From assembly GCA_965205025.1 (NCBI GenBank), contig CBDBFU010000012.1, positions 213,015 through 277,014 on the forward strand: a stretch of 64,000 bases of DNA. Reading direction: 5' to 3'. A program made the position numbers and the translations under genes. Below the pieces are notes generated by a model. It saw only the letters and a program-made list of their open reading frames with translations. It was not told where the DNA came from and ran no database searches. Below are positions 52,464 through 64,000 of the stretch, in pieces. The DNA comes from Candidatus Poribacteria bacterium (GTDB lineage: Bacteria; Poribacteria; WGA-4E; WGA-3G). Every line of letters starts with the position of its first letter. Position 1 is the first letter of the stretch.

Positions 52464-55400
52464 ATGCGAAAACTTTTTGCTCCACGATGTAGTGTTCTGA
52501 TTTTCTTTTGTTTCTACATTGCCACTGCACATGCCCAAGATAGGGTTCCCACTCATCCCGTTGATGGCACTTTCATCAAAGAGTGGTTGGTGCTGGGTCC
52601 CTTCTTTCCAGAGGATTTGGAGACCGATTTCCTCGCGTCAGTTAACGGCGAGGTTCTTGTTAATCCCAAACCCGGCGATACAGTGACCACCGCTGATGGA
52701 AAGATGTTGACTTGGACGGTATACCGTAGCAAAGGAAACCTTTTCAATCTGCTTCATGCTGTTGGAAACCATCGAGAGGCGGTCTGCTATACTTTCTGCC
52801 TATTGGAAAGCGATCGAGGTGGTGATGGAGAGTTTCTTGTCGGCAGTGATGATGGCGTTGTGGTTTTTCTCAACGGTCAGAGGGTACACACACAGCCAAT
52901 TAGGAGACCTATGGTCGTAGATGAAGATAGGGTCGCTGTTTCATTGCGCCCAGGCAAAAACCGCTGTCTGATGAAGGTCTCAAACGGGTACCAGAATTGG
53001 GCATTAACAGCGCGTGTTTTTCCATCTACTCGTGCAGTGATAGCAGGCGTCATTTCCAATGAAACAGGGAAGACCTTATCCAATGCCATCGTGAACCTGT
53101 GGCAAGGCAGGACCCTGATTGCAAAAACAGAGACCGACACCAGAGGGAATTATCAGTTTTCGGTCTATCCAGCAAGTGGACACTATGATATTCAAGCCAC
53201 CCACGGGGACAGAGGCACTTGGAAGATAGATGTACAACTTTCTACTGGTGTGCGGGTAAACATGAACTTGACTTTACAGAAAGCTATCAGTATCTCTGGG
53301 CACCTGCTAACGCTTGATAATACCCCACATGTTGGTGTCCTTGTGGAAGCATTATCTCTTGGCGAGAGTGGGCCCCGCCAAAGGAGGGTAACGACCTTTT
53401 CAGATAGAGTAGGAAGATATAAATTCATCAACCTGGAACCTGGATCGTATCAATTACGTTGCCACACCTCGGGCGCGTATAGCAGTTTTCAAAAAATAAT
53501 TGTCTCCGTTAGTTCCGAAAAAACTGAGAATATTGGTTTCAGTTTTCCTCCTTTCAAACATGGGACATGGAAAAACTACACTTATCTGGATGGATTGAAA
53601 GATAACTTTATTGAGTCGATTTACCAAGACCGAGACGGTTTTCTTTGGTTTGGGACGCTCAGTAGTGGTGTCTCTCGGTACGATGGCGAAAGGTTCGCCA
53701 ACTTCACCACGGATGATGGTCTTGCATCCGACTCTATCCGATGGATCCATGAAGACAATGCGGGACACCTCTGGTTTAGCACTTGGGGAGTTGGCGTTTC
53801 TCGGTATGATGGCGAAGAGTTTATTAACTTCACCACGGATGAGGGACTCGCATCCAACTTTGTCCGGGCGATTCATCAGGACCGGGAGGGTTACATCTGG
53901 TTCGGGACATACGACGGCGTTTCTCGGTACGATGGTGAAAAGTTCGTCAACTTCACCACAGATGAAGGACTCGTATCCAACTTTGTCCATGCGATCCATG
54001 AAGACAAAGCGGGACACCTCTGGTTTGGCACTTGGGAGGTTGGCGTTTCTCGGTATGATGGAGAAGAGTTTATCAGTTTCACCACGGATGAGGGACTCGT
54101 ATCTAACTCTGTAGCGACGATTCATCAGGACCGGGAGGGTTACATCTGGTTCGGGACAAACGACGGCGTTTCTCGGTACGATGGTGAAAAGTTTGTAAAC
54201 TTCACCACAGATGAGGGCCTCGCATCCAACTTTGTCCAAGCGATTCATCAGGACCGGGAGGGTTACATCTGGTTCGGGACAAGCGGTGGTGCTTCTCGGT
54301 ATGATGGCGAAAAGTTTGTAAACTTCACAATCGGTAAGGGGCCCGCATTTAACGTTGTGACGGCGATCCATCAAGACCGTGAGGGTTACATCTGGTTTGG
54401 AACAGAGGGCAATGGGCTTAGTCAATACGATAGCAGCGGGGTAATCAACTACACGACTTCTGATGGGCTCGTAGACAATCTTGTTTACACAATTTATCAA
54501 GACCATGAAGGGTACATCTGGTTTGGAACCAGGGGCGGAATTAGTCGATATGATGGCGAAAAGTTTATCAATTTTACAACCGATGCTGGACTCGTACACG
54601 ATTTTGTAAATTCGATCTATCAAGACCGTGAGGGGTACATCTGGTTCGGGACACAAGACGGAGTCTCCCAATACGATGGCGAAAAGTTCGTCAACTTCAC
54701 AATTAATGACGGACTCCCAAGCAATTCCGTATGGGCGATCTATCAAGACCATGAGGGTTACATCTGGTTCGGGACAAATGGTAGTGGGGTCTCTCAATAT
54801 GATGGTGAAAATTTTATTAACTTCAATACCGAAGACGGATTGGCACAAAATTATGTGATCTCAATTTATCAAGACCGTGAGGGTTACATCTGGTTCGGGA
54901 CAAACAACGGCGTTTCTCGGTACGATGGCGTAGAGTTCGTCAACTTTACCACGGATGCGGGGCTTGCATCCAACTTTGTCTATGCGATCCATGAAGACAA
55001 AGCGGGACACCTCTGGTTTGGAACCACAGGCGGCGAGGGGGTCTCCCGATATGACGGTGTGAATTTTGTCAACTTCACAAACACTGATGGACTCGCGCAA
55101 AATGATGCAACCTCGATTTACAAAGACCGAGACGGTTTTCTCTGGTTTGGGACGCTCAGCGGTGGTGTCTCTCAATATGACGGGACCGCCTGGACATCTT
55201 TAGATACGCGAGATGGACTCATAAGTGATCAGATTTCAAAAATTTATCAAGACTCAGATGGAAGGTTCTGGTTTGCAACGCTTGATGGGGTGTCCCAATA
55301 CAACCCGAATCGCGTTCCACCGCGTGTGCGGATCGTTTCAGTTCAGAGCCACAAGACATCTGCACAAACTGAATCTCTTAAGACAATTAAGGACATTATG

Positions 55401-56501
55401 ACCGATACTCGTGTAACTATCAAGTATAGTAGTATTGACTTCAAAACCCTAAAAGAAAAACGACAGTATCGAGTTCGCATCAAAGAGATTGACGCTGATT
55501 GGCGTAAACCAACACTATCGGACACCCTTAATATCAGCTTTGATAAACCGGGAACTTATACTTTCGAGGTCGTTGCAATTGACCGTGACCTAAACTACTC
55601 TAACCCGGCAAGCTTGACGTTGACTGTTGTGTTACCGTGGTATCAAAATAAGTGGATTCTCTATCCTTTAGGTGGAGCGATTGTTGTGTTAATGTTACTT
55701 TGTGGTACCTTTGTGTATCGTTACTACCAGCAGCATCAACAAGTTTTAGCCTATCAGCGGGAAGCGGTTTCTGAACTCGCTGATGCACAAGAGATGCAGA
55801 TGGGATTAATACCGCAAACCCCCCCTGAGGTCCCAGGATTTGAGATTGCAGGAGTCTGTATCTCTGCCCGTACCGTCAGTGGGGATTTTTTTGACTATGT
55901 TCCGCTCAGCAACGGAACGCTTGCGGTTGTGCTGGCAGATGTCGCCGGTAAAGGTATGAAGGGGGCAATGAATGCTATTTTATCTTCTGGTGCACTTTAT
56001 TCTGTGGCGCAGTTGGAAATGTCTTCATCTCAAATGTTGTGGGCATTGAACCAGAATCTTTATTCTCGATTTCAACGATATACTAATTGTGCTATGGCGA
56101 TACTGACAATTGACCCAACGGATAAGACGTTTAAATATGCTAACGCCGGAATTCCTTATCCTATGATCAAACGTGGTGAAGGTGATGTTGAAGAAATATC
56201 AATAGATGGACTCCCATTGGGCGCGTTTAAATCATCTGAATATGAAGAAACACCATCCGTTGAACTGAAGTCTGGAAATTTAATAATCCTTTTCAGTGAT
56301 GGCATTACCGAAGCATCTCAAAGAGACAATTCTGACCAACTTTACATGGAAACCGACCGCTTGACATACCTTATCAAAGAACTGGATAAAACAATGAACG
56401 CAGAAGCGGTGATAGATGCGATTATTAACGATGTTCGTGATTTTTCTGGTGACACTCAACAGAACGACGACATGACTATTGTAGTTATCAAAGCATTGTA
56501 A
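52464..56501 (+). CDS. Membrane-anchored sensor: periplasmic CarboxypepD_reg-like domains, about 18 Reg_prop (two-component regulator propeller) repeats, a Y_Y_Y-like Ig domain, one TM, and a cytoplasmic PP2C/SpoIIE-type Ser/Thr phosphatase
   Basis: Signal peptide. About 18 x 'GYIWFGTxxGVSRYDGEKFVNFTTDEGLxSN'. TM 'ILYPLGGAIVVLMLLCGTFVY'. SpoIIE-like 'SGDFFDYVPL...LADVAGKGMKGAM...FSDGITEA...NDDMTIVVIKAL'. No histidine-kinase motifs. Confidence 0.8.
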   Translation: MRKLFAPRCSVLIFFCFYIATAHAQDRVPTHPVDGTFIKEWLVLGPFFPEDLETDFLASVNGEVLVNPKPGDTVTTADGKMLTWTVYRSKGNLFNLLHAVGNHREAVCYTFCLLESDRGGDGEFLVGSDDGVVVFLNGQRVHTQPIRRPMVVDEDRVAVSLRPGKNRCLMKVSNGYQNWALTARVFPSTRAVIAGVISNETGKTLSNAIVNLWQGRTLIAKTETDTRGNYQFSVYPASGHYDIQATHGDRGTWKIDVQLSTGVRVNMNLTLQKAISISGHLLTLDNTPHVGVLVEALSLGESGPRQRRVTTFSDRVGRYKFINLEPGSYQLRCHTSGAYSSFQKIIVSVSSEKTENIGFSFPPFKHGTWKNYTYLDGLKDNFIESIYQDRDGFLWFGTLSSGVSRYDGERFANFTTDDGLASDSIRWIHEDNAGHLWFSTWGVGVSRYDGEEFINFTTDEGLASNFVRAIHQDREGYIWFGTYDGVSRYDGEKFVNFTTDEGLVSNFVHAIHEDKAGHLWFGTWEVGVSRYDGEEFISFTTDEGLVSNSVATIHQDREGYIWFGTNDGVSRYDGEKFVNFTTDEGLASNFVQAIHQDREGYIWFGTSGGASRYDGEKFVNFTIGKGPAFNVVTAIHQDREGYIWFGTEGNGLSQYDSSGVINYTTSDGLVDNLVYTIYQDHEGYIWFGTRGGISRYDGEKFINFTTDAGLVHDFVNSIYQDREGYIWFGTQDGVSQYDGEKFVNFTINDGLPSNSVWAIYQDHEGYIWFGTNGSGVSQYDGENFINFNTEDGLAQNYVISIYQDREGYIWFGTNNGVSRYDGVEFVNFTTDAGLASNFVYAIHEDKAGHLWFGTTGGEGVSRYDGVNFVNFTNTDGLAQNDATSIYKDRDGFLWFGTLSGGVSQYDGTAWTSLDTRDGLISDQISKIYQDSDGRFWFATLDGVSQYNPNRVPPRVRIVSVQSHKTSAQTESLKTIKDIMTDTRVTIKYSSIDFKTLKEKRQYRVRIKEIDADWRKPTLSDTLNISFDKPGTYTFEVVAIDRDLNYSNPASLTLTVVLPWYQNKWILYPLGGAIVVLMLLCGTFVYRYYQQHQQVLAYQREAVSELADAQEMQMGLIPQTPPEVPGFEIAGVCISARTVSGDFFDYVPLSNGTLAVVLADVAGKGMKGAMNAILSSGALYSVAQLEMSSSQMLWALNQNLYSRFQRYTNCAMAILTIDPTDKTFKYANAGIPYPMIKRGEGDVEEISIDGLPLGAFKSSEYEETPSVELKSGNLIILFSDGITEASQRDNSDQLYMETDRLTYLIKELDKTMNAEAVIDAIINDVRDFSGDTQQNDDMTIVVIKAL
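53560..55200 (+). repeat. about 87-bp periodic, near-identical nucleotide repeats encoding the Reg_prop array
   Basis: 'gagggttacatctggttcgggaca' recurs about 8 times. These repeats generate the spurious 464-aa antisense ORF 53454..54848. Confidence 0.85.
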
Positions 56502-56992: not shown

Positions 56993-57420
56993 TTGAAGTC
57001 AATACTCGGTCTCCTCGTTGTTGGACTTATTGTGGGCATAAATAAATATCTGGACTGGGCGGGGGAGTATCACAAGTATTCCAAATATCGCTATATCTAC
57101 AAAGACCTAAACACAAGAGAAGAAAAACATAAAATCCACTATGGGATTACAAGTCTGTCCCCTGAGAAAGCGTCAGCAGAACGCTTACTATCTTTACGGC
57201 GTGGACATTGGTCAATAGAGAACAAGTCGCACTGGATGCGGGACACGCCCCTTGGAGAAGATTCATCACCTGTCTGATCTGGTGCTATTCCACAAGTCAT
57301 GGCAGCATTGCGAAATACAGCATTATCCGTATTCCGGTTCATAGGAGCTACACGGATTGCTGATATGATGAAATATTATGCTTCAAATCCTAAAATCGCA
57401 GTAAACATCATAAAATGAGA
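56993..57420 (+). pseudogene. Degenerate C-terminal fragment of a DDE transposase (IS4/ISAs1-type 'HWSIEN' family) with an in-frame TGA
   Basis: '...ITSLSPEKASAERLLSLRRGHWSIENKSHWMRDTPLGEDSSPV*SGAIPQVMAALRNTALSVFRFIGATRIADMMKYYASNPKIAVNIIK*'. The TGA at 57275-57277 is in frame. The N-terminal about 250 aa of a normal transposase, including the DDE residues, is absent. Other genes in this window use TGA as a stop. Confidence 0.6.
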
Positions 57421-57546: not shown

Positions 57547-59184
57547 ATGAATGAACAACTTTCCCATCCTTTTATAAATGATGCAGCATTTAGAGACGCT
57601 GAAAAACGTGTTTTGGGAAATATTCTCACACAATTTGAAGAACTATCCAATGATGAGCTTGAGGAATTAGTTAAAACGAATGTGGAATTTCTTGGAAATG
57701 ATCATATCCGGAAGATTATTGGAAGTACTTATAACAAAGAAATAGAATCCGTTGAATATACTATTGGAAGTGCTAATTTTAATGAGAAGATCCTATCGAA
57801 TGCCTGTGCAAAGATGGAAGGGAAATGGGTAATTTCGGTAGATGAATCAATGGTGGATACAGAGAGTTTTGTCGGTGAAGTCGTATACAGACATAGTTGT
57901 GCATTCGGATATAAAATCCCAAAAACCTTGGATGAAGAAATTGTACCCAAGGAAGAGAGGATACTGGCAGTTTCATCAATTCTACGACTCCAAGATGAGG
58001 AAGATTTTGATAGAAAAATGGCACTCTTAACCTACATGCTCAACCTGTATGTTGCTTATTATACAGCAAAGATTCTTCAGTCATTGAATCAACCTATATA
58101 CGCTGTGATTTTACATGGACCTCTAATTCGGTTAATTGCCCCGTTTTTGAATCTTCTTTTTCGGAAGGAGGATATCAAAAAAGTCGTTACTGCTGATACT
58201 GAACCGCTTATAGATACTACTGATGAGATAAAAACGATTGCTTGTGGCGACTTGCTAGATTTAATAGTGGATGATCCAATTTATCAAGGTATCTCAGAAC
58301 AATTTATTGGATTATTTCCCAGAGAAAGATTGCAAAATGTGAAAGAAAGATTAGATAAAGGTGAAATAATCGGGATTGGATTTTATTTTTCTTTGCTCAG
58401 AAAATTGTCAGACTTAGCTAAAGAGATGAATTTTCACCTGATCAGTTGTGTAGATAATGCCACTTCAACAGAGTATTCAAAATTATATGTCCAGTATCAA
58501 ATTGAGCGTTTCGGGCAGGATTCTATTAACCAGGAAATCCTTCGCAAATTATTTGCAGCTTACGGTGTAAACTTTAGCAAGCAGTTCATAAAGGAAAGGT
58601 TTCGAGACTTAATTGACAAATCAGGTTGGGATGATGAAATGATTCATGCTTTTTCACTGAAATTTGATAATGAAAAGTCAATAGAATCCGAATTTACTCA
58701 ACCTGTGCCGATCCGGAGATATTTTACAGGTGGTAAAAATCAGGATATATTCGGGTTTAGGTTTGGTTCTGCATTTATTTCTGAAGATCCGTCACGGGAA
58801 ACTTTAATCAATCAGATTATAGATACTCTGTACCCGTTTAAAGACTACAGAATGTTAATGAGTTTTGTCCGTACAAGTGCTCTTAAGGCTCCAATTCGGG
58901 TGGAATTCCTTGAACAAGGAGGGGAAGATAATTGGAAAGAGGTATTGGCCTCAATCTATATTTCAAGTCTTCCGTACGGCAGTTATGGGTTACCAATATT
59001 CTTGTATTATGCAGATAAAATGGTGCGGATGCCGAAAGAAATTATATCAGTTGTTACTGAATCATACCTTGTTGAACAAGCAACGAGAGCATTGCATCAA
59101 ATCGGTTTGAGTGATGTAAAGTTAAAGGATGTCTTTTTAGGGGTCACGCAAAAGTTTAGAAGAGATTTCTATGAGCGAGGGTGA
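57547..59184 (+). CDS. Hypothetical 545-aa protein, first gene of the HerA/TGT cassette; tentatively NurA-like (RNase-H-like nuclease)
   Basis: ATG start. The TGA stop overlaps the upstream GTG of the next gene. There is no unambiguous motif. 'KWVISVDESMVD' (about aa 95), 'AVILHGPLIRL' (about aa 185) and 'HLISCVDNATS' (about aa 300) resemble the spacing of the acidic motifs of NurA-type nucleases, but this is weak. Confidence 0.7.
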   Translation: MNEQLSHPFINDAAFRDAEKRVLGNILTQFEELSNDELEELVKTNVEFLGNDHIRKIIGSTYNKEIESVEYTIGSANFNEKILSNACAKMEGKWVISVDESMVDTESFVGEVVYRHSCAFGYKIPKTLDEEIVPKEERILAVSSILRLQDEEDFDRKMALLTYMLNLYVAYYTAKILQSLNQPIYAVILHGPLIRLIAPFLNLLFRKEDIKKVVTADTEPLIDTTDEIKTIACGDLLDLIVDDPIYQGISEQFIGLFPRERLQNVKERLDKGEIIGIGFYFSLLRKLSDLAKEMNFHLISCVDNATSTEYSKLYVQYQIERFGQDSINQEILRKLFAAYGVNFSKQFIKERFRDLIDKSGWDDEMIHAFSLKFDNEKSIESEFTQPVPIRRYFTGGKNQDIFGFRFGSAFISEDPSRETLINQIIDTLYPFKDYRMLMSFVRTSALKAPIRVEFLEQGGEDNWKEVLASIYISSLPYGSYGLPIFLYYADKMVRMPKEIISVVTESYLVEQATRALHQIGLSDVKLKDVFLGVTQKFRRDFYERG

Positions 59185-59198
59185 AAGGAGAAAAGAGA

Positions 59199-61199
59199 AT
59201 GGTTTTGGGAATAATCTTTGGTGAAACATCAACGCAGGAATTTTCCTTTCTATTTGGAGATGTAGATGGCGAACGTCAAAATCAATTGAAATTTTCCTAT
59301 GTTGAAGTTAATATACCTGAAAGTAATGATAAGGTTGTTGCTAAAGTTATTGATGTAAATACAGAGAATCCACTATTGGCAAAAGATACTGCAAAGTTTT
59401 ATTCGGAGCACGAAACAGTTGGAATTTCGGTCCCTGATATAATATCGCACCGATTCACTTTGTATCAAGCCAAATGTGAAGTAATGGGGATCTATAATAG
59501 TATAGAAAACAAAATAGAACCCCTAACGCAGGCGATAAAACCCGGTGAGAAAGTAGAACTATTATCCAATGATGTGCTCAATCAACTCTTCTCTGCAAGC
59601 GAGGAATGGCATTTTCCCCTTGGATATGTTGAGATACCCGGCAGACAAACACATGCTCAAGTATCTTTGAAAGCAGACTCAATCATTACGATGCACGCTT
59701 GTGTTTTTGGCATGACAGGAATGGGTAAAACCACAACATCTGCTGTGCTCTTAGAAGAATTAATGTTCCGTGGTGCAAAGATCATCGTATTTGATCCACA
59801 CGCTGATTATATACATATTAATCGGATACGTCAAAAACTCAATGATGATTTTTCAGAAAGAATTCATAAGCATCAAGGCCTGATAGATAAAATATCAGAA
59901 TACAAGGAATTATTAATAAGTAAATGGTCAAGTAACTGGTCTCAGAGAGAAGTCAAACCTTGGGATGATTTTGATCCATCATTCAAAGATCTTATAAATG
60001 AGAAAGTCAATGAAGAATTAACATCTGAGAATATTTTTTATCGCTTACTTAGTTTATGTTCAATTAAAAATCGTAATCTAATGGTTGACTCTACGCGCAT
60101 CTCTGAACAATTGGATGACATTATTGACGGAATCACGCATCTTGATTTACATAATGGAATCCCTCAGGAACTCATTCACCGGAAGTTGACTATTAAGTTT
60201 AATGCTTTTCCTAGCCTCCAAGTATATACAGATAAAAGTCCTTACTTCACAATGAGATTGATTGAAGCAATAGCGGGTGAAGGTTTTTCAGAGGCACAAG
60301 AAGGTTTTGTAATTGATTGGCTGTCGCACCCACCAAAGCCGAATTTATCTGATGAACAACTTCTTTACTACTTAAAATCACGTATTAAGGATATGCCTAA
60401 ATCAAAAGACGGCAAACCCAATCCATCCCAAGTTCCTCTAAACCGAATTGTTGATAAGGCAAGCCGGACTGTCGTGTCTTTGATAAAACGAAAGTGCACG
60501 TCTCTAAATATCAGTAATTTTGTTGATGCTTTTTGTGCAAAGGGTGAGAGTTTATCTAATGTGGCGACAGCGGTATTTGATCTTTCAGATTTGGAAAATG
60601 ATCACGCAAGGCGAGCTTTGATTTATGCTGTTATGGAATTTGCTTTTGATAGGTATAAATCAAAAAGTTTTATTGTAGAAAAAGATAATCATCATGTAGG
60701 CAAAGATGCACATCCTGTACTTTTTGCTCTTGAGGAAGCAAGGACATTAATCCCCCGGCAAGATGAAAGTAGCACTACCGGAGAAATGCATCCCGCGACC
60801 AGAGCAGCTCGACTTGCAGCAAGACAAATTGCAACTGAAGGACGGAAGATGGGACTTGGTATGCTTGTTATCTCGCAAAAACCCGCTTCAGTAGATCCAA
60901 TAACTGTTTCTCAAGCAAATACGTTAATTTTGCACCGAGTTATTAACCCGGATGATCAGACGTACATCCGTAATGTTGGCGAATCTTTAGCTAGTGAAGA
61001 TTTGGAAACTTTGAAAACTGTAAAAGAAGGTGTTGCTATTGTTACGGGTGATGCCTTAAAAACCAGAATGTCTACATTAGTTAAAGTCAGAAATCGTTAT
61101 AGTGAACCTGGCACTGAAAAACCTCGCCCAATAGAAAGATTTTGGAACGATCCTAATAGAGAGACTTCAAGTGAAGTTCCTGAGTCTACAACGGAATAA
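59199..61199 (+). CDS. HerA/FtsK-type (DUF87) hexameric ATPase
   Basis: The ORF-track GTG start at 59181 overlaps the upstream stop. ATG at 59199 is preceded by SD 'aaaggag'. HAS-barrel-like N-terminus 'MVLGIIFGETSTQEFSFLF'. Walker A 'FGMTGMGKTTTSAV'. 'IIVFDPHADY' (HerA DPHGEY-type). Walker-B region 'VLFALEEARTLIP'. Hallmark 'GRKMGLGMLVISQKPASVDPITVSQANTLILHRVINPDD'. Confidence 0.85.
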   Translation: MVLGIIFGETSTQEFSFLFGDVDGERQNQLKFSYVEVNIPESNDKVVAKVIDVNTENPLLAKDTAKFYSEHETVGISVPDIISHRFTLYQAKCEVMGIYNSIENKIEPLTQAIKPGEKVELLSNDVLNQLFSASEEWHFPLGYVEIPGRQTHAQVSLKADSIITMHACVFGMTGMGKTTTSAVLLEELMFRGAKIIVFDPHADYIHINRIRQKLNDDFSERIHKHQGLIDKISEYKELLISKWSSNWSQREVKPWDDFDPSFKDLINEKVNEELTSENIFYRLLSLCSIKNRNLMVDSTRISEQLDDIIDGITHLDLHNGIPQELIHRKLTIKFNAFPSLQVYTDKSPYFTMRLIEAIAGEGFSEAQEGFVIDWLSHPPKPNLSDEQLLYYLKSRIKDMPKSKDGKPNPSQVPLNRIVDKASRTVVSLIKRKCTSLNISNFVDAFCAKGESLSNVATAVFDLSDLENDHARRALIYAVMEFAFDRYKSKSFIVEKDNHHVGKDAHPVLFALEEARTLIPRQDESSTTGEMHPATRAARLAARQIATEGRKMGLGMLVISQKPASVDPITVSQANTLILHRVINPDDQTYIRNVGESLASEDLETLKTVKEGVAIVTGDALKTRMSTLVKVRNRYSEPGTEKPRPIERFWNDPNRETSSEVPESTTE

Positions 61200-61217: not shown

Positions 61218-62987
61218 ATGTGTTGGATGGGAATAGTAATAATGTCAGAATGTTTACAATCTAATCAGCAGCAACACACGGGAGGTAATTTGTTGATTTT
61301 AGGATGTTCTGACCGAAAACGTGAGTGTTACGGAAGCGCCCCAGCACTTGAAGTTTATGACGGTCCAAACTTCCAAACCCTCCGAAAGTACTTCAGGGAA
61401 AATGGATGGCCTCCCGGTCTTATAATAAAAATAATCTCTGCTAAATATAAAATCATTGACGCTACAACAATTATTGAACCCTATGATGAGCGACTGGATA
61501 AAGAAACAGCGAAAAAAATGAGGAATCGAGTAAGGTATCATTTAAAAAAAATTGAGCACCCAAAATCTGTTTTCGTCAATATGGGTAAGAACTATTTACC
61601 TGCAATTTCTTGCATTAAGTCTTTATATAATCCTGACAGAATTGAGTATGCAAAAGGTGGATATGTACAAAAACGCAAGGAGCTTAAACAGTGGCTTGAA
61701 GGTTTATCAAATAACACTGCTACAATCAATTCTCAAGAACAATCAGATAAGAAGTCTTATCTTTACTTTTTTCCAGATTGGAATGATTATGTTTATGAAT
61801 CTTTCGATCCAGAGAAAATAGATGAAAATCGGAAACCTGAGAAAGGAGTAAAAAAGTACGCTCACGAGATATTTAAGGATGATCCGCCTTATGACGGTTT
61901 ACTCCTCAGTCTTGCCCAACTGCAAACTAAAAATGGACAACTTACCCGACTTGATGAAAAAGGCTCATCGAATTTTCGAACTGAGATGCGGGTTCCTAAT
62001 AGGCTTTTATTATTCGGAGATTGCGGTGCTTTTTCATACATTGAGGATGAAAAGCCTCCCATTTCCTGTGAGGATGCGGCTTTTCGGTATAGTCAATTCG
62101 GTTTTGACCTTGGGACATCTGTCGATCATATACCGATTTCATCGATATCCAAAAGAAAGCAACGATACCGGATGGACTTAACAGCTGAAAATGCCAAAAA
62201 GTTTTTAGAAATTTGTCAGAACAACGAATACGAATTCGATCCAATTGGGAGCATACAAGGTATCATACCTAAACATTATGCTAAATTTGCCAGTGAATAT
62301 ATTAAATGGGGATATGAGCATGTTGCATTAGGTGGATTAGTACGTAGACAAGATTCAGATATTGTAGAAATAGTTGCAGCTGTTCGGGAGGCATTACAGA
62401 AAAGCACATGGAGTAAAAATAAAAATATTTGGGTACATCTTTTTGGCATTCTGAGACCAAATCTTCAACCCATTTTTCGGGAACTTGGTGTTTCCAGTTT
62501 TGACAGCGCATCTTACTTGAGAAAAGCGTGGTCAAGTCCAAATAGGAGCTATTTAACTGCATCTGGAAAGTGGTACGGAAGCATCCGAGTACCTTTTAGT
62601 ACATCAAAACCAATGCGCGAAGTTGCGAAATCTGATGCTAAGTTTTCTAAGAATGGTGCTATGCAGAAATTGGAAAAAGAATGTCTTACGAACCTTAAAC
62701 TTTTTGATGATAGGAAAATATCAGAGGAGAAAGTTCTTGAGAACATTAATGAATATAGTGCACTGCTTCAACGAAAAAAAACATATAACCATTTTTCCGA
62801 AAGACATAAGGAGTTATTAGATGAACGCCCTTGGAAAAAATGTAAATGTAAGATTTGCCAAGATTTGGGTATACATGTTGTAGTTTTCAGGGGAGCAAAC
62901 CGTAACAGACGAAGAGGTTTCCACAATACCTGGGTATTTTATCACAAAATTCTACATAAAGGTCGCAAAATATCATCTAAAGAGTAA
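61218..62987 (+). CDS. tRNA-guanine-transglycosylase (TGT/DpdA)-fold protein with an extra ~190-aa N-terminal domain
   Basis: C-terminal zinc site 'CKCKICQDLGIHVVVFRGANRNRRRGFHNTWVFYH' (C-x-C-x2-C...H, as in the TGT family). 'HLFGILRPNLQPIFRELGVSSFDSASY' resembles TGT 'MGVGKP...GVDMFDCV'. 'LLLFGDCGAFSYIED' fits the substrate-pocket Asp region. The N-terminal 'LLILGCSDRKRECYGSAPALEVYDGPNFQTLRKY...' is not part of the canonical TGT barrel. ATG 61218, with an alternative at 61242. Confidence 0.7.
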   Translation: MCWMGIVIMSECLQSNQQQHTGGNLLILGCSDRKRECYGSAPALEVYDGPNFQTLRKYFRENGWPPGLIIKIISAKYKIIDATTIIEPYDERLDKETAKKMRNRVRYHLKKIEHPKSVFVNMGKNYLPAISCIKSLYNPDRIEYAKGGYVQKRKELKQWLEGLSNNTATINSQEQSDKKSYLYFFPDWNDYVYESFDPEKIDENRKPEKGVKKYAHEIFKDDPPYDGLLLSLAQLQTKNGQLTRLDEKGSSNFRTEMRVPNRLLLFGDCGAFSYIEDEKPPISCEDAAFRYSQFGFDLGTSVDHIPISSISKRKQRYRMDLTAENAKKFLEICQNNEYEFDPIGSIQGIIPKHYAKFASEYIKWGYEHVALGGLVRRQDSDIVEIVAAVREALQKSTWSKNKNIWVHLFGILRPNLQPIFRELGVSSFDSASYLRKAWSSPNRSYLTASGKWYGSIRVPFSTSKPMREVAKSDAKFSKNGAMQKLEKECLTNLKLFDDRKISEEKVLENINEYSALLQRKKTYNHFSERHKELLDERPWKKCKCKICQDLGIHVVVFRGANRNRRRGFHNTWVFYHKILHKGRKISSKE

Positions 62988-63220
62988 CATAGATGATTCT
63001 CTCGGAGAACTATACAATCCTGTAAATCTTGGTAATCCTACAAATCTTGGTTCAGACAGTACAGGGTGTGTAATCTTTTTGTCACTTTTGAAAGCACTAA
63101 TAAATTCTCAATTCCATATACACCTATTTAGAGTTTGCCGATTACAAGGAATTCTTCACTACATTACTGCGCTTAGATATCCATCACTGACTTACCCAAA
63201 ATATAAACATTGAAGAAATC

Positions 63221-64000
63221 AAAATAAAATGAAGAAAACATTAACTTCTAACAACTAATATACATCTATTACATTAAAACAAAATGCATGAATATTATTT
63301 ATCATAATGAAAATAAATTTGAAATTATTGGTACACTATGGCAAAATTAATCTGGATTATACCCTGCACAATAGAAGTGTTTCATTAATTATAGGTTTTA
63401 TTATATGTGCTAAATTAACTATCTGGAGTAGAAGAAAATCCATGTTAGAATTACGAATAAAACATTCAGAATTGTCTCCTTATGAGAATCATCCTAAGAA
63501 CATACATACTCATAATCTAAAAAAGCTGGTACAGAGGATTATTGTACCGAATTACACCATATATTTTTTTAGTTTTTTTAGTTTTAAAATTTTACACCGA
63601 TTCATCAAATCCTTTGTTATCCCAATCCCCAACAGGGTTTACAGCATTTCAAAAAGTAATTTCTTAAAAAGCGATTTGAAAAACTTGAAAAACTTAAAGA
63701 ACTTGAAAAACTTAAAATTTGAGCAGCAACAAACAAAACAGACGATCATACACACAAGAAAACCACTAAACGTTTCGAAGGATATAATTACATTTCTTCT
63801 GTGGGTAAGGATTCCGATCCCGATCTTAACTACTTTACATATCCCTAAGATATTTAACATTCAAACAATTTCAAAACAATGGATTAGAAGAATAAAAAAA
63901 GACACAGCATACACTATTTTTGCAAATTCTTGTAACCTTAAAAAAGTGTCTCTAAACCCAGTGTAGTACTGACGGGAAAAAGGTTTTACCAAAGTTACAC
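63221..64000 (+). repeat. about 760-bp repeated element, copy 2 (runs to the window edge); direct orientation relative to copy 1; contains (aaaaacttg)-type iteron array and a low-complexity ORF (63307..63966)
   Basis: See 41527..42283. The array here reads 'gaaaaacttgaaaaacttaaagaacttgaaaaacttaaaa'. Confidence 0.8.

What the first reader, a model, noticed from the sequence alone, without database searches (positions are those of the whole stretch)
61218..61790. Uncharacterised ~190-aa N-terminal domain fused to the TGT-fold core of gene C
Canonical bacterial TGT and DpdA proteins (about 380-420 aa) start directly with the (beta/alpha)8 barrel. Here roughly 190 residues precede the first recognisable barrel motif ('LLLFGDCGAF'). 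This region begins 'GNLLILGCSDRKRECYGSAPALEVYDGPNFQTLRKYFRENGWPPGLIIKIISAKYKIIDATTIIEPYDERL', which I cannot assign to any family with confidence.

An extra domain on a base-exchange enzyme is the obvious place for substrate targeting, for instance DNA versus tRNA, or for interaction with the HerA ATPase.
Basis: inference. Interest (0 to 1): 0.55.

Follow-up and report, generated by a model that had tools for sequence, protein, structure and literature searches.

The report
DpdC-like domain fused to DpdA
The unexplained front end of this DNA base-swapping enzyme belongs to a known protein family (DUF6884) that includes DpdC, the enzyme that finishes the same DNA mark, so the gene probably encodes a two-in-one DNA-marking enzyme in a compact bacterial defence-type system that I did not find described in print.

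Summary
ORF 61218-62987 (589 aa, probable true start M9 at 61242) has about 180 residues in front of the DpdA homology, which starts at residue 180-183.

DUF6884 contains DpdC, the enzyme that converts preQ0-DNA to ADG-DNA. Two lines link this domain to DpdC:
- Longer plasmid DpdA fusions match both my domain profile and a DpdC profile.
- Unfused relatives sit in the DpdC position next to dpdA.

The fusion occurs in over 15 phyla. It is not tied to HerA:
- 69 of 82 loci carry a UvrD-like helicase, in 66 together with a Cas4-like PD-(D/E)XK nuclease.
- 12 loci, all Poribacteria where named and including this window, have the gene-A/HerA pair.
- 9 have another HerA pair.
- DpdB is absent from all but one locus.
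- preQ0 genes are nearby in 25 loci.

Best reading: a bifunctional DpdC-like/DpdA 7-deazaguanine DNA-modifying enzyme in a compact, DpdB-less Dpd variant. The chemistry is inferred, not shown.

The parts
61218..62987 (+). Whole gene: DUF6884(DpdC-like)-DpdA fusion, 589 aa. The probable true start is ATG 61242 (M9).
   Evidence: ORF list. Pfam DUF6884 plus TGT. NCBIfam DpdA. Start inferred from alignment A1.
61281..61712 (+). DUF6884 / YaaA-fold domain, residues about 22-165.
61305..61319 (+). CxxxK motif (C30-S-D-R-K34), the putative active-site motif of DUF6884.
   Evidence: C30 is 100% and K34 96% conserved in 84 fused proteins. The motif is named in the Pfam paper PMC11701544. Codons were read directly from the sequence.
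61434..61451 (+). Variant of the 'LSAxxG' motif: I73-S74-A75-K-Y-K78.
   Evidence: S74 is 100% and A75 99% conserved. Position 78 is Gly in 68 of 84 proteins but K or E in the Poribacteria clade.
61713..61754 (+). Low-confidence, poorly conserved linker, residues 166-179.
   Evidence: pLDDT below 50-60. Mean identity for residues 166-182 is 46%.
61755..62954 (+). DpdA (DNA-guanine transglycosylase) domain, residues 180-579. It carries D268, D303, D429 and Zn ligands C542, C544, C547 and H569.
   Evidence: 7UI4 alignment, E 8.4e-60. Foldseek to 7UI4, E 2.5e-27. Residues were mapped from PMC10164549 and are invariant in A1.
59181..61199 (+). HerA-type ATPase (672 aa), the operon partner.
   Evidence: Pfam DUF87, E 1.1e-19, and PADLOC HerA, E 2e-37. 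Its start overlaps the stop of gene A by 4 nt.
57547..59184 (+). Gene A (545 aa), in the NurA position upstream of HerA. Its family is unproven.
   Evidence: The only hit is sub-threshold Pfam NurA (E 7e-4, 19.5 bits against a cutoff of 21). No PADLOC, NCBIfam or PDB-sequence hit. It is conserved with HerA in 12 loci.

Best explanation
Residues about 22-165 are a DUF6884 domain with the YaaA 'cantaloupe' fold. This is the same superfamily as DpdC, the enzyme that hydrates preQ0 in DNA to the amide ADG. The domain is fused through a flexible linker to a catalytically intact DpdA.

The protein would be a two-step DNA modifier. The DpdA half exchanges a guanine in DNA for preQ0. The N-terminal half then acts on that flipped-out 7-deazaguanine, most likely converting dPreQ0 to dADG. 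The invariant Cys30 is a candidate nucleophile and Lys34, Tyr47, Ser74 and Lys152 are candidate helpers.

DpdB, the ATPase that canonical DpdA needs, is absent. The co-operonic HerA motor, or a UvrD-like helicase in most relatives, presumably supplies the ATP-driven DNA handling. The partner nuclease (gene A here, a Cas4-like PD-(D/E)XK nuclease elsewhere) would be the restriction arm.

Shown here:
- the domain's identity and fold;
- conservation of its motif residues;
- an intact DpdA active site;
- the fusion's spread across phyla and its gene partners;
- linkage to preQ0 genes.

Inferred, not shown:
- the chemistry of the N-terminal domain;
- the role of the motor and of the nuclease;
- a defence function.
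For: Domain identity and fold:
- Pfam DUF6884 is above threshold.
- C30 is 100% conserved, K34 96%, Y47, S74, G147 and K152 100%, A75 and Y89 99%, in 84 fused proteins from many phyla.
- The domain is as conserved as the barrel.

Link to DpdC:
- Canonical DpdC (PADLOC DpdC E 6e-142) hits DUF6884 just below threshold, and about a third of DpdC homologues carry a precomputed PF21818 hit.
- A preprint lists DUF6884 as the dpdC domain.
- The 689-714 aa plasmid DpdA fusions match both my N-terminal HMM (1e-11 to 8e-9) and a DpdC HMM (2.5e-14 to 1e-10).
- The motifs line up in hhalign.

Unfused relatives occupy the DpdC position:
- QueD, DUF6884, then a TGT gene overlapping by 4 nt.
- YhhQ ... DUF6884, c10, HerA, TGT.

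DpdC's activity is established in PMC10164549.

DpdA half: equivalog score 338.6 against a cutoff of 200. The catalytic Asp residues and the Zn site are invariant.

Context:
- QueC, QueD, QueE or YhhQ lie within about 10 kb in 25 loci.
- 80 of 82 loci have a motor partner.
- A DpdB homologue is present in 1 of 85 loci.
Against: - Direct similarity to canonical DpdC is weak: PADLOC DpdC E 0.013, hhalign P 0.006 with probability 6%, and the DpdC HMM does not hit the window protein.
- The roughly 140-residue C-terminal half of DpdC is missing here.
- DUF6884 is a broad family. Most relatives are stand-alone proteins of about 150 aa, and some are phage proteins. B. subtilis YfjM has been linked to DNA lesions. 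So family membership does not fix the reaction.
- The Poribacteria clade lacks the motif glycine (K78), and this protein has V150 where 98% have Gly.
- No preQ0 genes lie in this window.
- No catalytic mechanism of DpdC was found in the passages I read to compare against.
Confidence: 0.55

Rival explanations
1. The domain is a non-catalytic DNA-binding, base-flipping or site-recognition module. It targets DpdA to DNA or to specific sites, and the mark stops at dPreQ0.
For: YaaA, the closest solved fold, co-purifies with dsDNA and has a basic cleft but no known catalysis. Some Dpd islands lack dpdC and are thought to make only dPreQ0. Direct similarity to DpdC is weak.
Against: Strict invariance of a Cys, two Lys, two Tyr and a Ser across more than 15 phyla is more typical of an active site than of a DNA-binding surface. 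Canonical DpdA binds DNA without such a domain. Unfused relatives sit where dpdC sits.
Confidence: 0.2
2. The domain is catalytic but carries out different chemistry on DNA. Examples are another 7-deazaguanine derivative, or recognition or processing of an abasic or damaged site that arises during base exchange. In that case the module might serve DNA repair rather than defence.
Against: The bridge to DpdC through the long fusions. Linkage to preQ0 synthesis and transport genes. Patchy distribution across phyla, different neighbourhoods in related genomes and a transposase remnant next to the operon look like a mobile island rather than housekeeping repair.
Confidence: 0.15
3. The domain is an adaptor that docks the enzyme onto the HerA hexamer.
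For: It is co-operonic with HerA here and in 11 other loci, all Poribacteria where the source is named.
Against: The same fused domain, with the same invariant residues, occurs with UvrD-like helicases and no HerA in 59 of 82 loci (56 of them with the PD-(D/E)XK nuclease as well). Unfused DUF6884 also occurs in dpd-like clusters without HerA.
Confidence: 0.04
4. The TGT half acts on tRNA or on a protein rather than on DNA, as the TGT-like Cap10 of type IV CBASS is proposed to do. The N-terminal domain would then serve that substrate.
For: TGT-fold proteins in defence systems can be proposed to act on proteins (PMC13376578). RefSeq names the protein 'tRNA-guanine transglycosylase DpdA'.
Against: It scores well above the DpdA equivalog cutoff and only 33 bits on the archaeal tRNA TGT model, cutoff 350. 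The best structural match is the DNA preQ0 insertase 7UI4. All partners are DNA motors and nucleases. There are no CD-NTase or QueC-like Cap9 neighbours.
Confidence: 0.04

Closest known systems
DpdC of the Salmonella/Enterobacterales Dpd system (dPreQ0-DNA to dADG-DNA)
   Same: Same superfamily: DUF6884, related to YaaA/DUF328. Shared motif residues are C-x3-K, Y-x-G, S-A, Y and G-x-x-Y-x-x-A. The genetic association with DpdA and with preQ0 genes is also shared. Bridging sequences match both profiles.
   Different: Only about 145 aa here against 318 aa, so the C-terminal half of DpdC is absent. Direct sequence similarity is marginal. The domain is fused to DpdA instead of being a separate protein. 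The activity is untested.
DpdA, DNA preQ0 insertase (PDB 7UI4)
   Same: The C-terminal 400 residues align end to end. The acid/base and nucleophile Asp residues, the base-binding Asp, the Gly-Gly loop and the Zn site are all present.
   Different: It carries an extra N-terminal domain. No DpdB partner is encoded nearby. His181 is replaced by an invariant Gln (Q347), as in tRNA TGTs.
E. coli YaaA (DUF328, PDB 5CAJ) and Pfam DUF6884 members such as B. subtilis YfjM
   Different: YaaA is a stand-alone protein of about 260 aa in the peroxide-stress response with no known catalysis. Sequence identity is 14%.
Canonical Dpd restriction-modification island (dpdA-K)
   Same: It uses a DpdA plus a DpdC-type module and is linked to preQ0 supply. 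It is also linked to helicases and nucleases that could restrict unmodified DNA.
   Different: DpdB and DpdD-K are absent. They are replaced by one helicase/translocase-nuclease pair: gene A with HerA here, and a UvrD-like helicase with a Cas4-like nuclease in most relatives. The system is three genes instead of about eleven.
Long DpdC-like-DpdA fusions (689-714 aa) on Nostoc, Picosynechococcus and Paenibacillus plasmids
   Same: The same two-domain logic, with DUF6884/DpdC-like at the N-terminus and DpdA at the C-terminus. RefSeq also labels them simply 'DpdA'.
   Different: The N-terminal part is longer and closer to DpdC. The partners are different: DEAD/DEAH helicases, a second short TGT-like gene and DpdJ. 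The DpdA halves are 36-40% identical to this one.
BREX-related capture (BRC) systems with HerA/FtsK plus TGT (PMC12839542)
   Same: A HerA-type translocase and a TGT homologue sit in one defence-type locus, with no DpdB.
   Different: BRC is defined by PglZ, DUF6079, a STAND NTPase, DUF4007 and GNAT, and its authors report no DpdC homologue. None of those components is present here.

Membership tests
Pfam DUF6884 (PF21818) | HMM score above the gathering threshold | tested here: met
   40.5 bits for the whole protein and 43.3 bits for residues 1-191, against a cutoff of 30. Residues 27-131 cover profile positions 3-107 of 135.
Pfam DUF6884 (PF21818) | Conserved CxxxK motif | tested here: met
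   C30-S-D-R-K34. C30 is 100% and K34 96% conserved in 84 fused proteins. The motif is described in PMC11701544.
Pfam DUF6884 (PF21818) | Conserved LSAxxG motif | tested here: inconclusive
   The sequence here is I-S-A-K-Y-K. S74 and A75 are kept, but Gly is replaced by Lys. Position 78 is Gly in 68 of 84 relatives and K or E in the Poribacteria clade.
Pfam DUF6884 (PF21818) | YaaA-like alpha/beta 'cantaloupe' fold | tested here: met
   [not shown]
DpdC (functional family) | Significant match to DpdC sequence models | tested here: not met
   The best PADLOC DpdC hit is E 0.013. There is no NCBIfam hit. My DpdC HMM does not hit the window protein. Homology is only transitive, through the long fusions.
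DpdC (functional family) | Full-length architecture of about 318 aa including the C-terminal half | tested here: not met
   The domain ends at about residue 165 and DpdA begins at 180.
DpdC (functional family) | Genetic coupling to dpdA and to preQ0 supply | tested here: met
   It is fused to DpdA here. Unfused relatives lie next to a TGT gene. preQ0 genes are nearby in 25 loci.
DpdC (functional family) | Converts dPreQ0 in DNA to dADG | not testable with these tools
   This needs nucleoside LC-MS or an in vitro assay. The activity is known only for Salmonella DpdC.
DpdA (NCBIfam NF041059) | Equivalog HMM score above the cutoff | tested here: met
   338.6 bits against a cutoff of 200, residues 183-578.
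DpdA (NCBIfam NF041059) | Catalytic Asp95 and Asp256, base-binding Asp130, and the Zn site | tested here: met
   D268, D429, D303 and C542/C544/C547/H569 are all invariant in A1. His181 is Gln347.
Canonical Dpd system | DpdB (ParB/DGQHR ATPase) encoded with DpdA | tested here: not met
   No DpdB lies next to the gene. A DpdB homologue is present in 1 of 85 loci, and that locus is not the window.
Canonical Dpd system | Restriction genes dpdD-K | tested here: not met
   The neighbours here are gene A and HerA. In most relatives they are a UvrD-like helicase and a PD-(D/E)XK nuclease.
PUA or other tRNA-binding module | Match to PUA models or fold | tested here: not met
   No PUA hit in Pfam at E up to 1. 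The top folds are YaaA and AF0587.
HerA-NurA pair | HerA ATPase domain | tested here: met
   Pfam DUF87 E 1.1e-19 and PADLOC HerA E 2e-37.
HerA-NurA pair | NurA nuclease domain in the upstream gene | tested here: inconclusive
   Pfam NurA scores 19.5 bits against a cutoff of 21 and covers the C-terminal 66 residues only. A profile of 12 orthologues finds nothing in PDB sequences.
BRC (BREX-related capture) system | PglZ, DUF6079, STAND NTPase and DUF4007 together with HerA | tested here: not met
   None of these is among the operon genes or the recurrent neighbours. The definition comes from PMC12839542.

The most novel reading that the evidence does not exclude
The fusion is the modification core of a widespread, so far undescribed minimal 7-deazaguanine restriction-modification or defence system that lacks DpdB. 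One polypeptide would write the complete dADG mark. An interchangeable end-resection-type motor-nuclease pair would both power base exchange and destroy unmarked DNA. Three such pairs are seen: a UvrD-like helicase with a Cas4-like nuclease, gene A with HerA, and c10 with a second HerA type.
Probability: 0.35. Interest if true: 0.75.

Novelty: new variant of a known kind. Interest (0 to 1): 0.55.

Why it matters
Databases label these proteins simply 'tRNA-guanine transglycosylase DpdA', which hides a second, probably catalytic, domain.

If the reading is right, it would show three things:
- The two chemical steps of dADG formation can be carried by one protein.
- DpdA does not need DpdB, because generic helicase/translocase-nuclease pairs can take its place.
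- 7-deazaguanine DNA marking extends to many uncultured phyla, such as Poribacteria, Planctomycetota, Chloroflexota, Latescibacterota and Acidobacteriota, in a three-gene format small enough to test in E. coli.

It would also give DUF6884, a large family of unknown function, an experimentally tractable member. The substrate would be supplied by the neighbouring domain, and the invariant Cys/Lys pair gives a direct mutational test.

Tried and rejected
- NCBIfam on the N-terminal part alone found nothing, even at E 10.
- PDB sequence search with the full protein found only DpdA and archaeal TGT, and nothing for the N-terminus.
- Direct hhalign of my N-terminal profile against a DpdC profile gave a sensible alignment but only 6% probability. 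I therefore rely on the bridging fusions.
- The word-index homologue search with the N-terminus alone returned only 15 proteins, mostly fragments. The exhaustive representative search was more useful.
- The afdb50 fold library was unavailable.
- P0001, the exact window protein, is not in the contig index, so I could not see beyond the window end.
- A profile of gene A found nothing in PDB sequences. Gene A and c10 are not detectably related.
- The apparent 'split' gene pair P0122/P0106 is a 59-nt overlapping frameshift, not a natural split.
- Promoter and terminator scans were at background level. The operon's GC is only slightly below the window mean.
- Literature searches for DpdA with HerA, NurA or UvrD found no description of this system.
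- Rejected readings: a longer TGT barrel, a PUA domain, and a HerA-specific adaptor.
Full report
**Observation**

The ORF at 61218-62987 (+) encodes 589 aa. NCBIfam's DpdA equivalog model covers residues 183-578 at 338.6 bits against a cutoff of 200. The solved Salmonella DNA preQ0 insertase DpdA (7UI4) aligns to residues 180-579, beginning at about its own residue 3. It is also the best structural match of a full-length AlphaFold2 model (Foldseek E 2.5e-27).

Three details need correction:
- 'LLLFGDCGAF' is at residues 263-272. Residues 180-262 are DpdA's own N-terminal segment.
- The real start is probably M9 (61242). At least 90% of 64 homologues have Met there and most have nothing upstream.
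- The folded extra domain is residues about 22-165, followed by a poorly conserved, low-confidence linker.

**What the domain is**

It can be assigned to a family. Residues 27-131 match Pfam DUF6884 (PF21818) at E 3.6e-10, 40.5 bits against a cutoff of 30. They also match the PADLOC candidate-defence model PDC-M57A. There is no PUA hit and no match to TGT N-terminal strands.

Here the first motif is C30-S-D-R-K34. The second is I-S-A-K-Y-K, with the glycine replaced by lysine.

I aligned 84 fused homologues recovered from species-representative genomes, which are 33-78% identical to the query. In that set:
- C30, P42, A43, Y47, W64, P65, S74, G147 and K152 are invariant.
- K34, G49, A75 and Y89 are at least 96% conserved.

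The domain is as conserved as the TGT barrel, at 62% against 66% mean identity. The Poribacteria clade carries K or E at the motif glycine. This protein and its closest relative have V150 where 98% have Gly.

**Link to DpdC**

[quoted passage not shown] The literature assigns DpdC either to DUF328/YaaA or to DUF6884.

I took a canonical DpdC from an Enterobacter plasmid dpd island (PADLOC DpdC E 6e-142). It hits DUF6884 just below threshold (E 6e-5) and YaaA more weakly. About a third of its homologues carry a precomputed PF21818 hit.

Direct similarity of the window domain to DpdC is marginal:
- PADLOC DpdC gives E 0.013.
- hhalign gives P 0.006 with 6% probability, although the PAxxxYxG, LSAxxG and GxxYxxAI blocks align. 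The CxxxK motif is also present in DpdC (C10...K14).

Two independent bridges exist.
- First, 'DpdA' proteins of 689-714 aa on Nostoc, Picosynechococcus and Paenibacillus plasmids have an N-terminal region that matches both my N-terminal HMM (1e-11 to 8e-9) and my DpdC HMM (2.5e-14 to 1e-10).
- Second, unfused relatives of the window domain sit where dpdC sits. One case is a 239-aa DUF6884 gene overlapping by 4 nt the start of a 397-aa TGT gene, with queD upstream. Another is an operon DUF6884(154 aa)-c10-HerA-TGT downstream of a yhhQ preQ0-transporter gene.

The window domain lacks the roughly 140-residue C-terminal half of DpdC. I therefore file it as a DUF6884 member of the DpdC type by homology and context. 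I do not file it as a demonstrated DpdC.

**The DpdA half is intact**

I mapped the residues shown or proposed to be essential in Salmonella DpdA onto the alignment:
- D95 corresponds to D268.
- F99 corresponds to F272.
- D130 corresponds to D303.
- G206-G207 correspond to G372-G373.
- D256 corresponds to D429.
- The Zn ligands are C542, C544, C547 and H569.

All of these are invariant in 65 sequences. His181 is an invariant Gln (Q347) in this family.

**Distribution and partners**

The fusion is common. There are 935 database hits, and nearly all of the best 120 are full-length. A scan of one genome per species found 130 loci, and the best 80 all cover both domains. They come from Poribacteria, Planctomycetota, Chloroflexota, Latescibacterota, Acidobacteriota, Bacillota, Nitrospirota, Pseudomonadota and other phyla. 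The closest relatives (56-78% identical) are Candidatus Poribacteria, so the window is probably poribacterial.

I called ORFs in all loci and clustered the neighbours. The 82 non-duplicate loci fall into these classes:

| Partner genes within 8 kb | Loci |
|---|---|
| UvrD-like helicase (~790 aa) + PD-(D/E)XK nuclease only | 56 |
| Gene A + HerA only (includes the window) | 8 |
| UvrD-like/PD-(D/E)XK + a second HerA type with unassigned c10 (~640 aa) | 6 |
| UvrD-like/PD-(D/E)XK + gene A/HerA | 4 |
| c10 + second HerA type only | 3 |
| UvrD-like helicase only | 3 |
| None | 2 |

The PD-(D/E)XK nuclease is PF12705 with weak Cas4 hits. In most loci the UvrD-like helicase and the nuclease lie directly downstream of the fusion gene. 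The HerA association is therefore a minority, lineage-restricted variant, and the N-terminal domain cannot be a HerA-specific adaptor.

Other context:
- A DpdB homologue occurs in only 1 of 85 loci.
- preQ0 synthesis or uptake genes (QueC, QueD, QueE, YhhQ/Vut_1) lie within about 10 kb in 25 loci. None is in this window.
- In related Poribacteria the cassette sits in a different neighbourhood.
- Here a DDE-transposase remnant lies just upstream.

Gene A (57547-59184) has only a sub-threshold NurA hit and no PDB-sequence relative. Its nuclease status rests on gene order and is unproven.

**Mechanism**

The best-supported reading is a bifunctional modifier. The DpdA half exchanges G for preQ0. 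The tethered DUF6884 domain acts on the new base, most likely hydrating the nitrile to give dADG. C30 would be a plausible nucleophile by analogy with Cys-dependent nitrile chemistry. That analogy is my own inference.

Canonical DpdA needs ATP hydrolysis by DpdB, and DpdB is missing here. The conserved motor partner is the obvious substitute, and the partner nuclease is the obvious restriction arm. Three different motor-nuclease pairs have been recruited, and two of the pairs resemble DNA-end resection machines. This suggests that the fusion needs the function rather than a particular protein.

None of this chemistry or biology is shown here. The rivals are a non-catalytic DNA-binding or targeting domain, different chemistry on a lesion or on another deazaguanine derivative, and, much less likely, a HerA adaptor or a non-DNA substrate.

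**Novelty**

Pfam's precomputed annotations already record the PF21818 + PF01702 architecture, and RefSeq calls these proteins DpdA. So the domain itself is a new member of a known family.

I found no paper describing the fusion or a DpdB-less DpdA system paired with UvrD-like/PD-(D/E)XK or HerA/NurA-like genes. The large dpd survey required dpdA and dpdB together, so it would have missed these loci. The HerA + TGT 'BRC' systems are built from different components and lack a DpdC homologue. The held library is incomplete, so prior description cannot be excluded.

I rate it a new variant of a known kind, the Dpd 7-deazaguanine system.

Noticed in passing
window 56993-57277 (+): A 94-aa ORF is a C-terminal fragment of a DDE transposase (Pfam DDE_Tnp_1, E 1e-4, just under threshold). 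It lies between the sensor protein and the operon and suggests a mobile or rearranged island edge.
   Followed up: partly
window 52464-56501 (+): A 1345-aa protein with 14 two-component-regulator propeller repeats, a Y_Y_Y domain and a C-terminal SpoIIE/PP2C phosphatase domain. Its repeats create long spurious antisense ORFs such as 53454-54848.
   Followed up: partly
window 63000-64000: The tail is very AT-rich (GC 0.30) and has short tandem repeats, for example 63676-63717 (9 nt x 4.8). The 219-aa ORF 63307-63966, with its 'LKNLKNLKN' run, looks spurious. In related Poribacteria loci this position holds small conserved genes instead (c18, an example of which carries a UPF0175 hit, plus c14 and c16).
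   Followed up: partly
L093 1435-6851: An unfused version of the system: DUF6884 (154 aa, 43% identical to the window domain), c10 (627 aa), HerA (603 aa) and TGT (403 aa), with a YhhQ/Vut_1 preQ0 transporter gene upstream.
   Followed up: partly
L086 7071-9215; L087 6152-8221; L088 1074-3149: A second kind of DpdC-like-DpdA fusion (689-714 aa) on cyanobacterial and Paenibacillus plasmids. It is annotated only as DpdA. It sits next to a second short TGT-like gene, and to DEAD/DEAH helicases (Nostoc, Picosynechococcus) or a P-loop NTPase and DpdJ with queCDE and a VUT-family gene upstream (Paenibacillus).
   Followed up: partly
window 62256-62258 (Q347): The base-recognition His181 of Salmonella DpdA is an invariant Gln in this fusion family, as in tRNA-guanine transglycosylases. 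This may bear on base specificity.
   Followed up: no
window 57547-59184 (+): Gene A (545 aa) has no significant family in Pfam, NCBIfam, PADLOC or PDB sequences, yet is 61-81% identical across 12 loci. Calling it NurA rests on a sub-threshold hit and on gene order.
   Followed up: partly
L032 9003-9956 and 9 other loci (cluster c9); L018 8746-9525 (cluster c26): Two neighbours recur in the UvrD-type loci. One is a protein of about 317 aa with no Pfam or PADLOC hit (10 loci). The other is a HAD-family hydrolase (4 loci).
   Followed up: no
[not shown]
   Followed up: no
L011, L020, L056, L014; L029, L034, L035, L038, L049: Some loci carry two motor(-nuclease) sets around one fusion gene: gene A/HerA plus a UvrD-like helicase (with the PD-(D/E)XK nuclease where the locus extends far enough), or c10/HerA plus UvrD-like/PD-(D/E)XK.
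   Followed up: no
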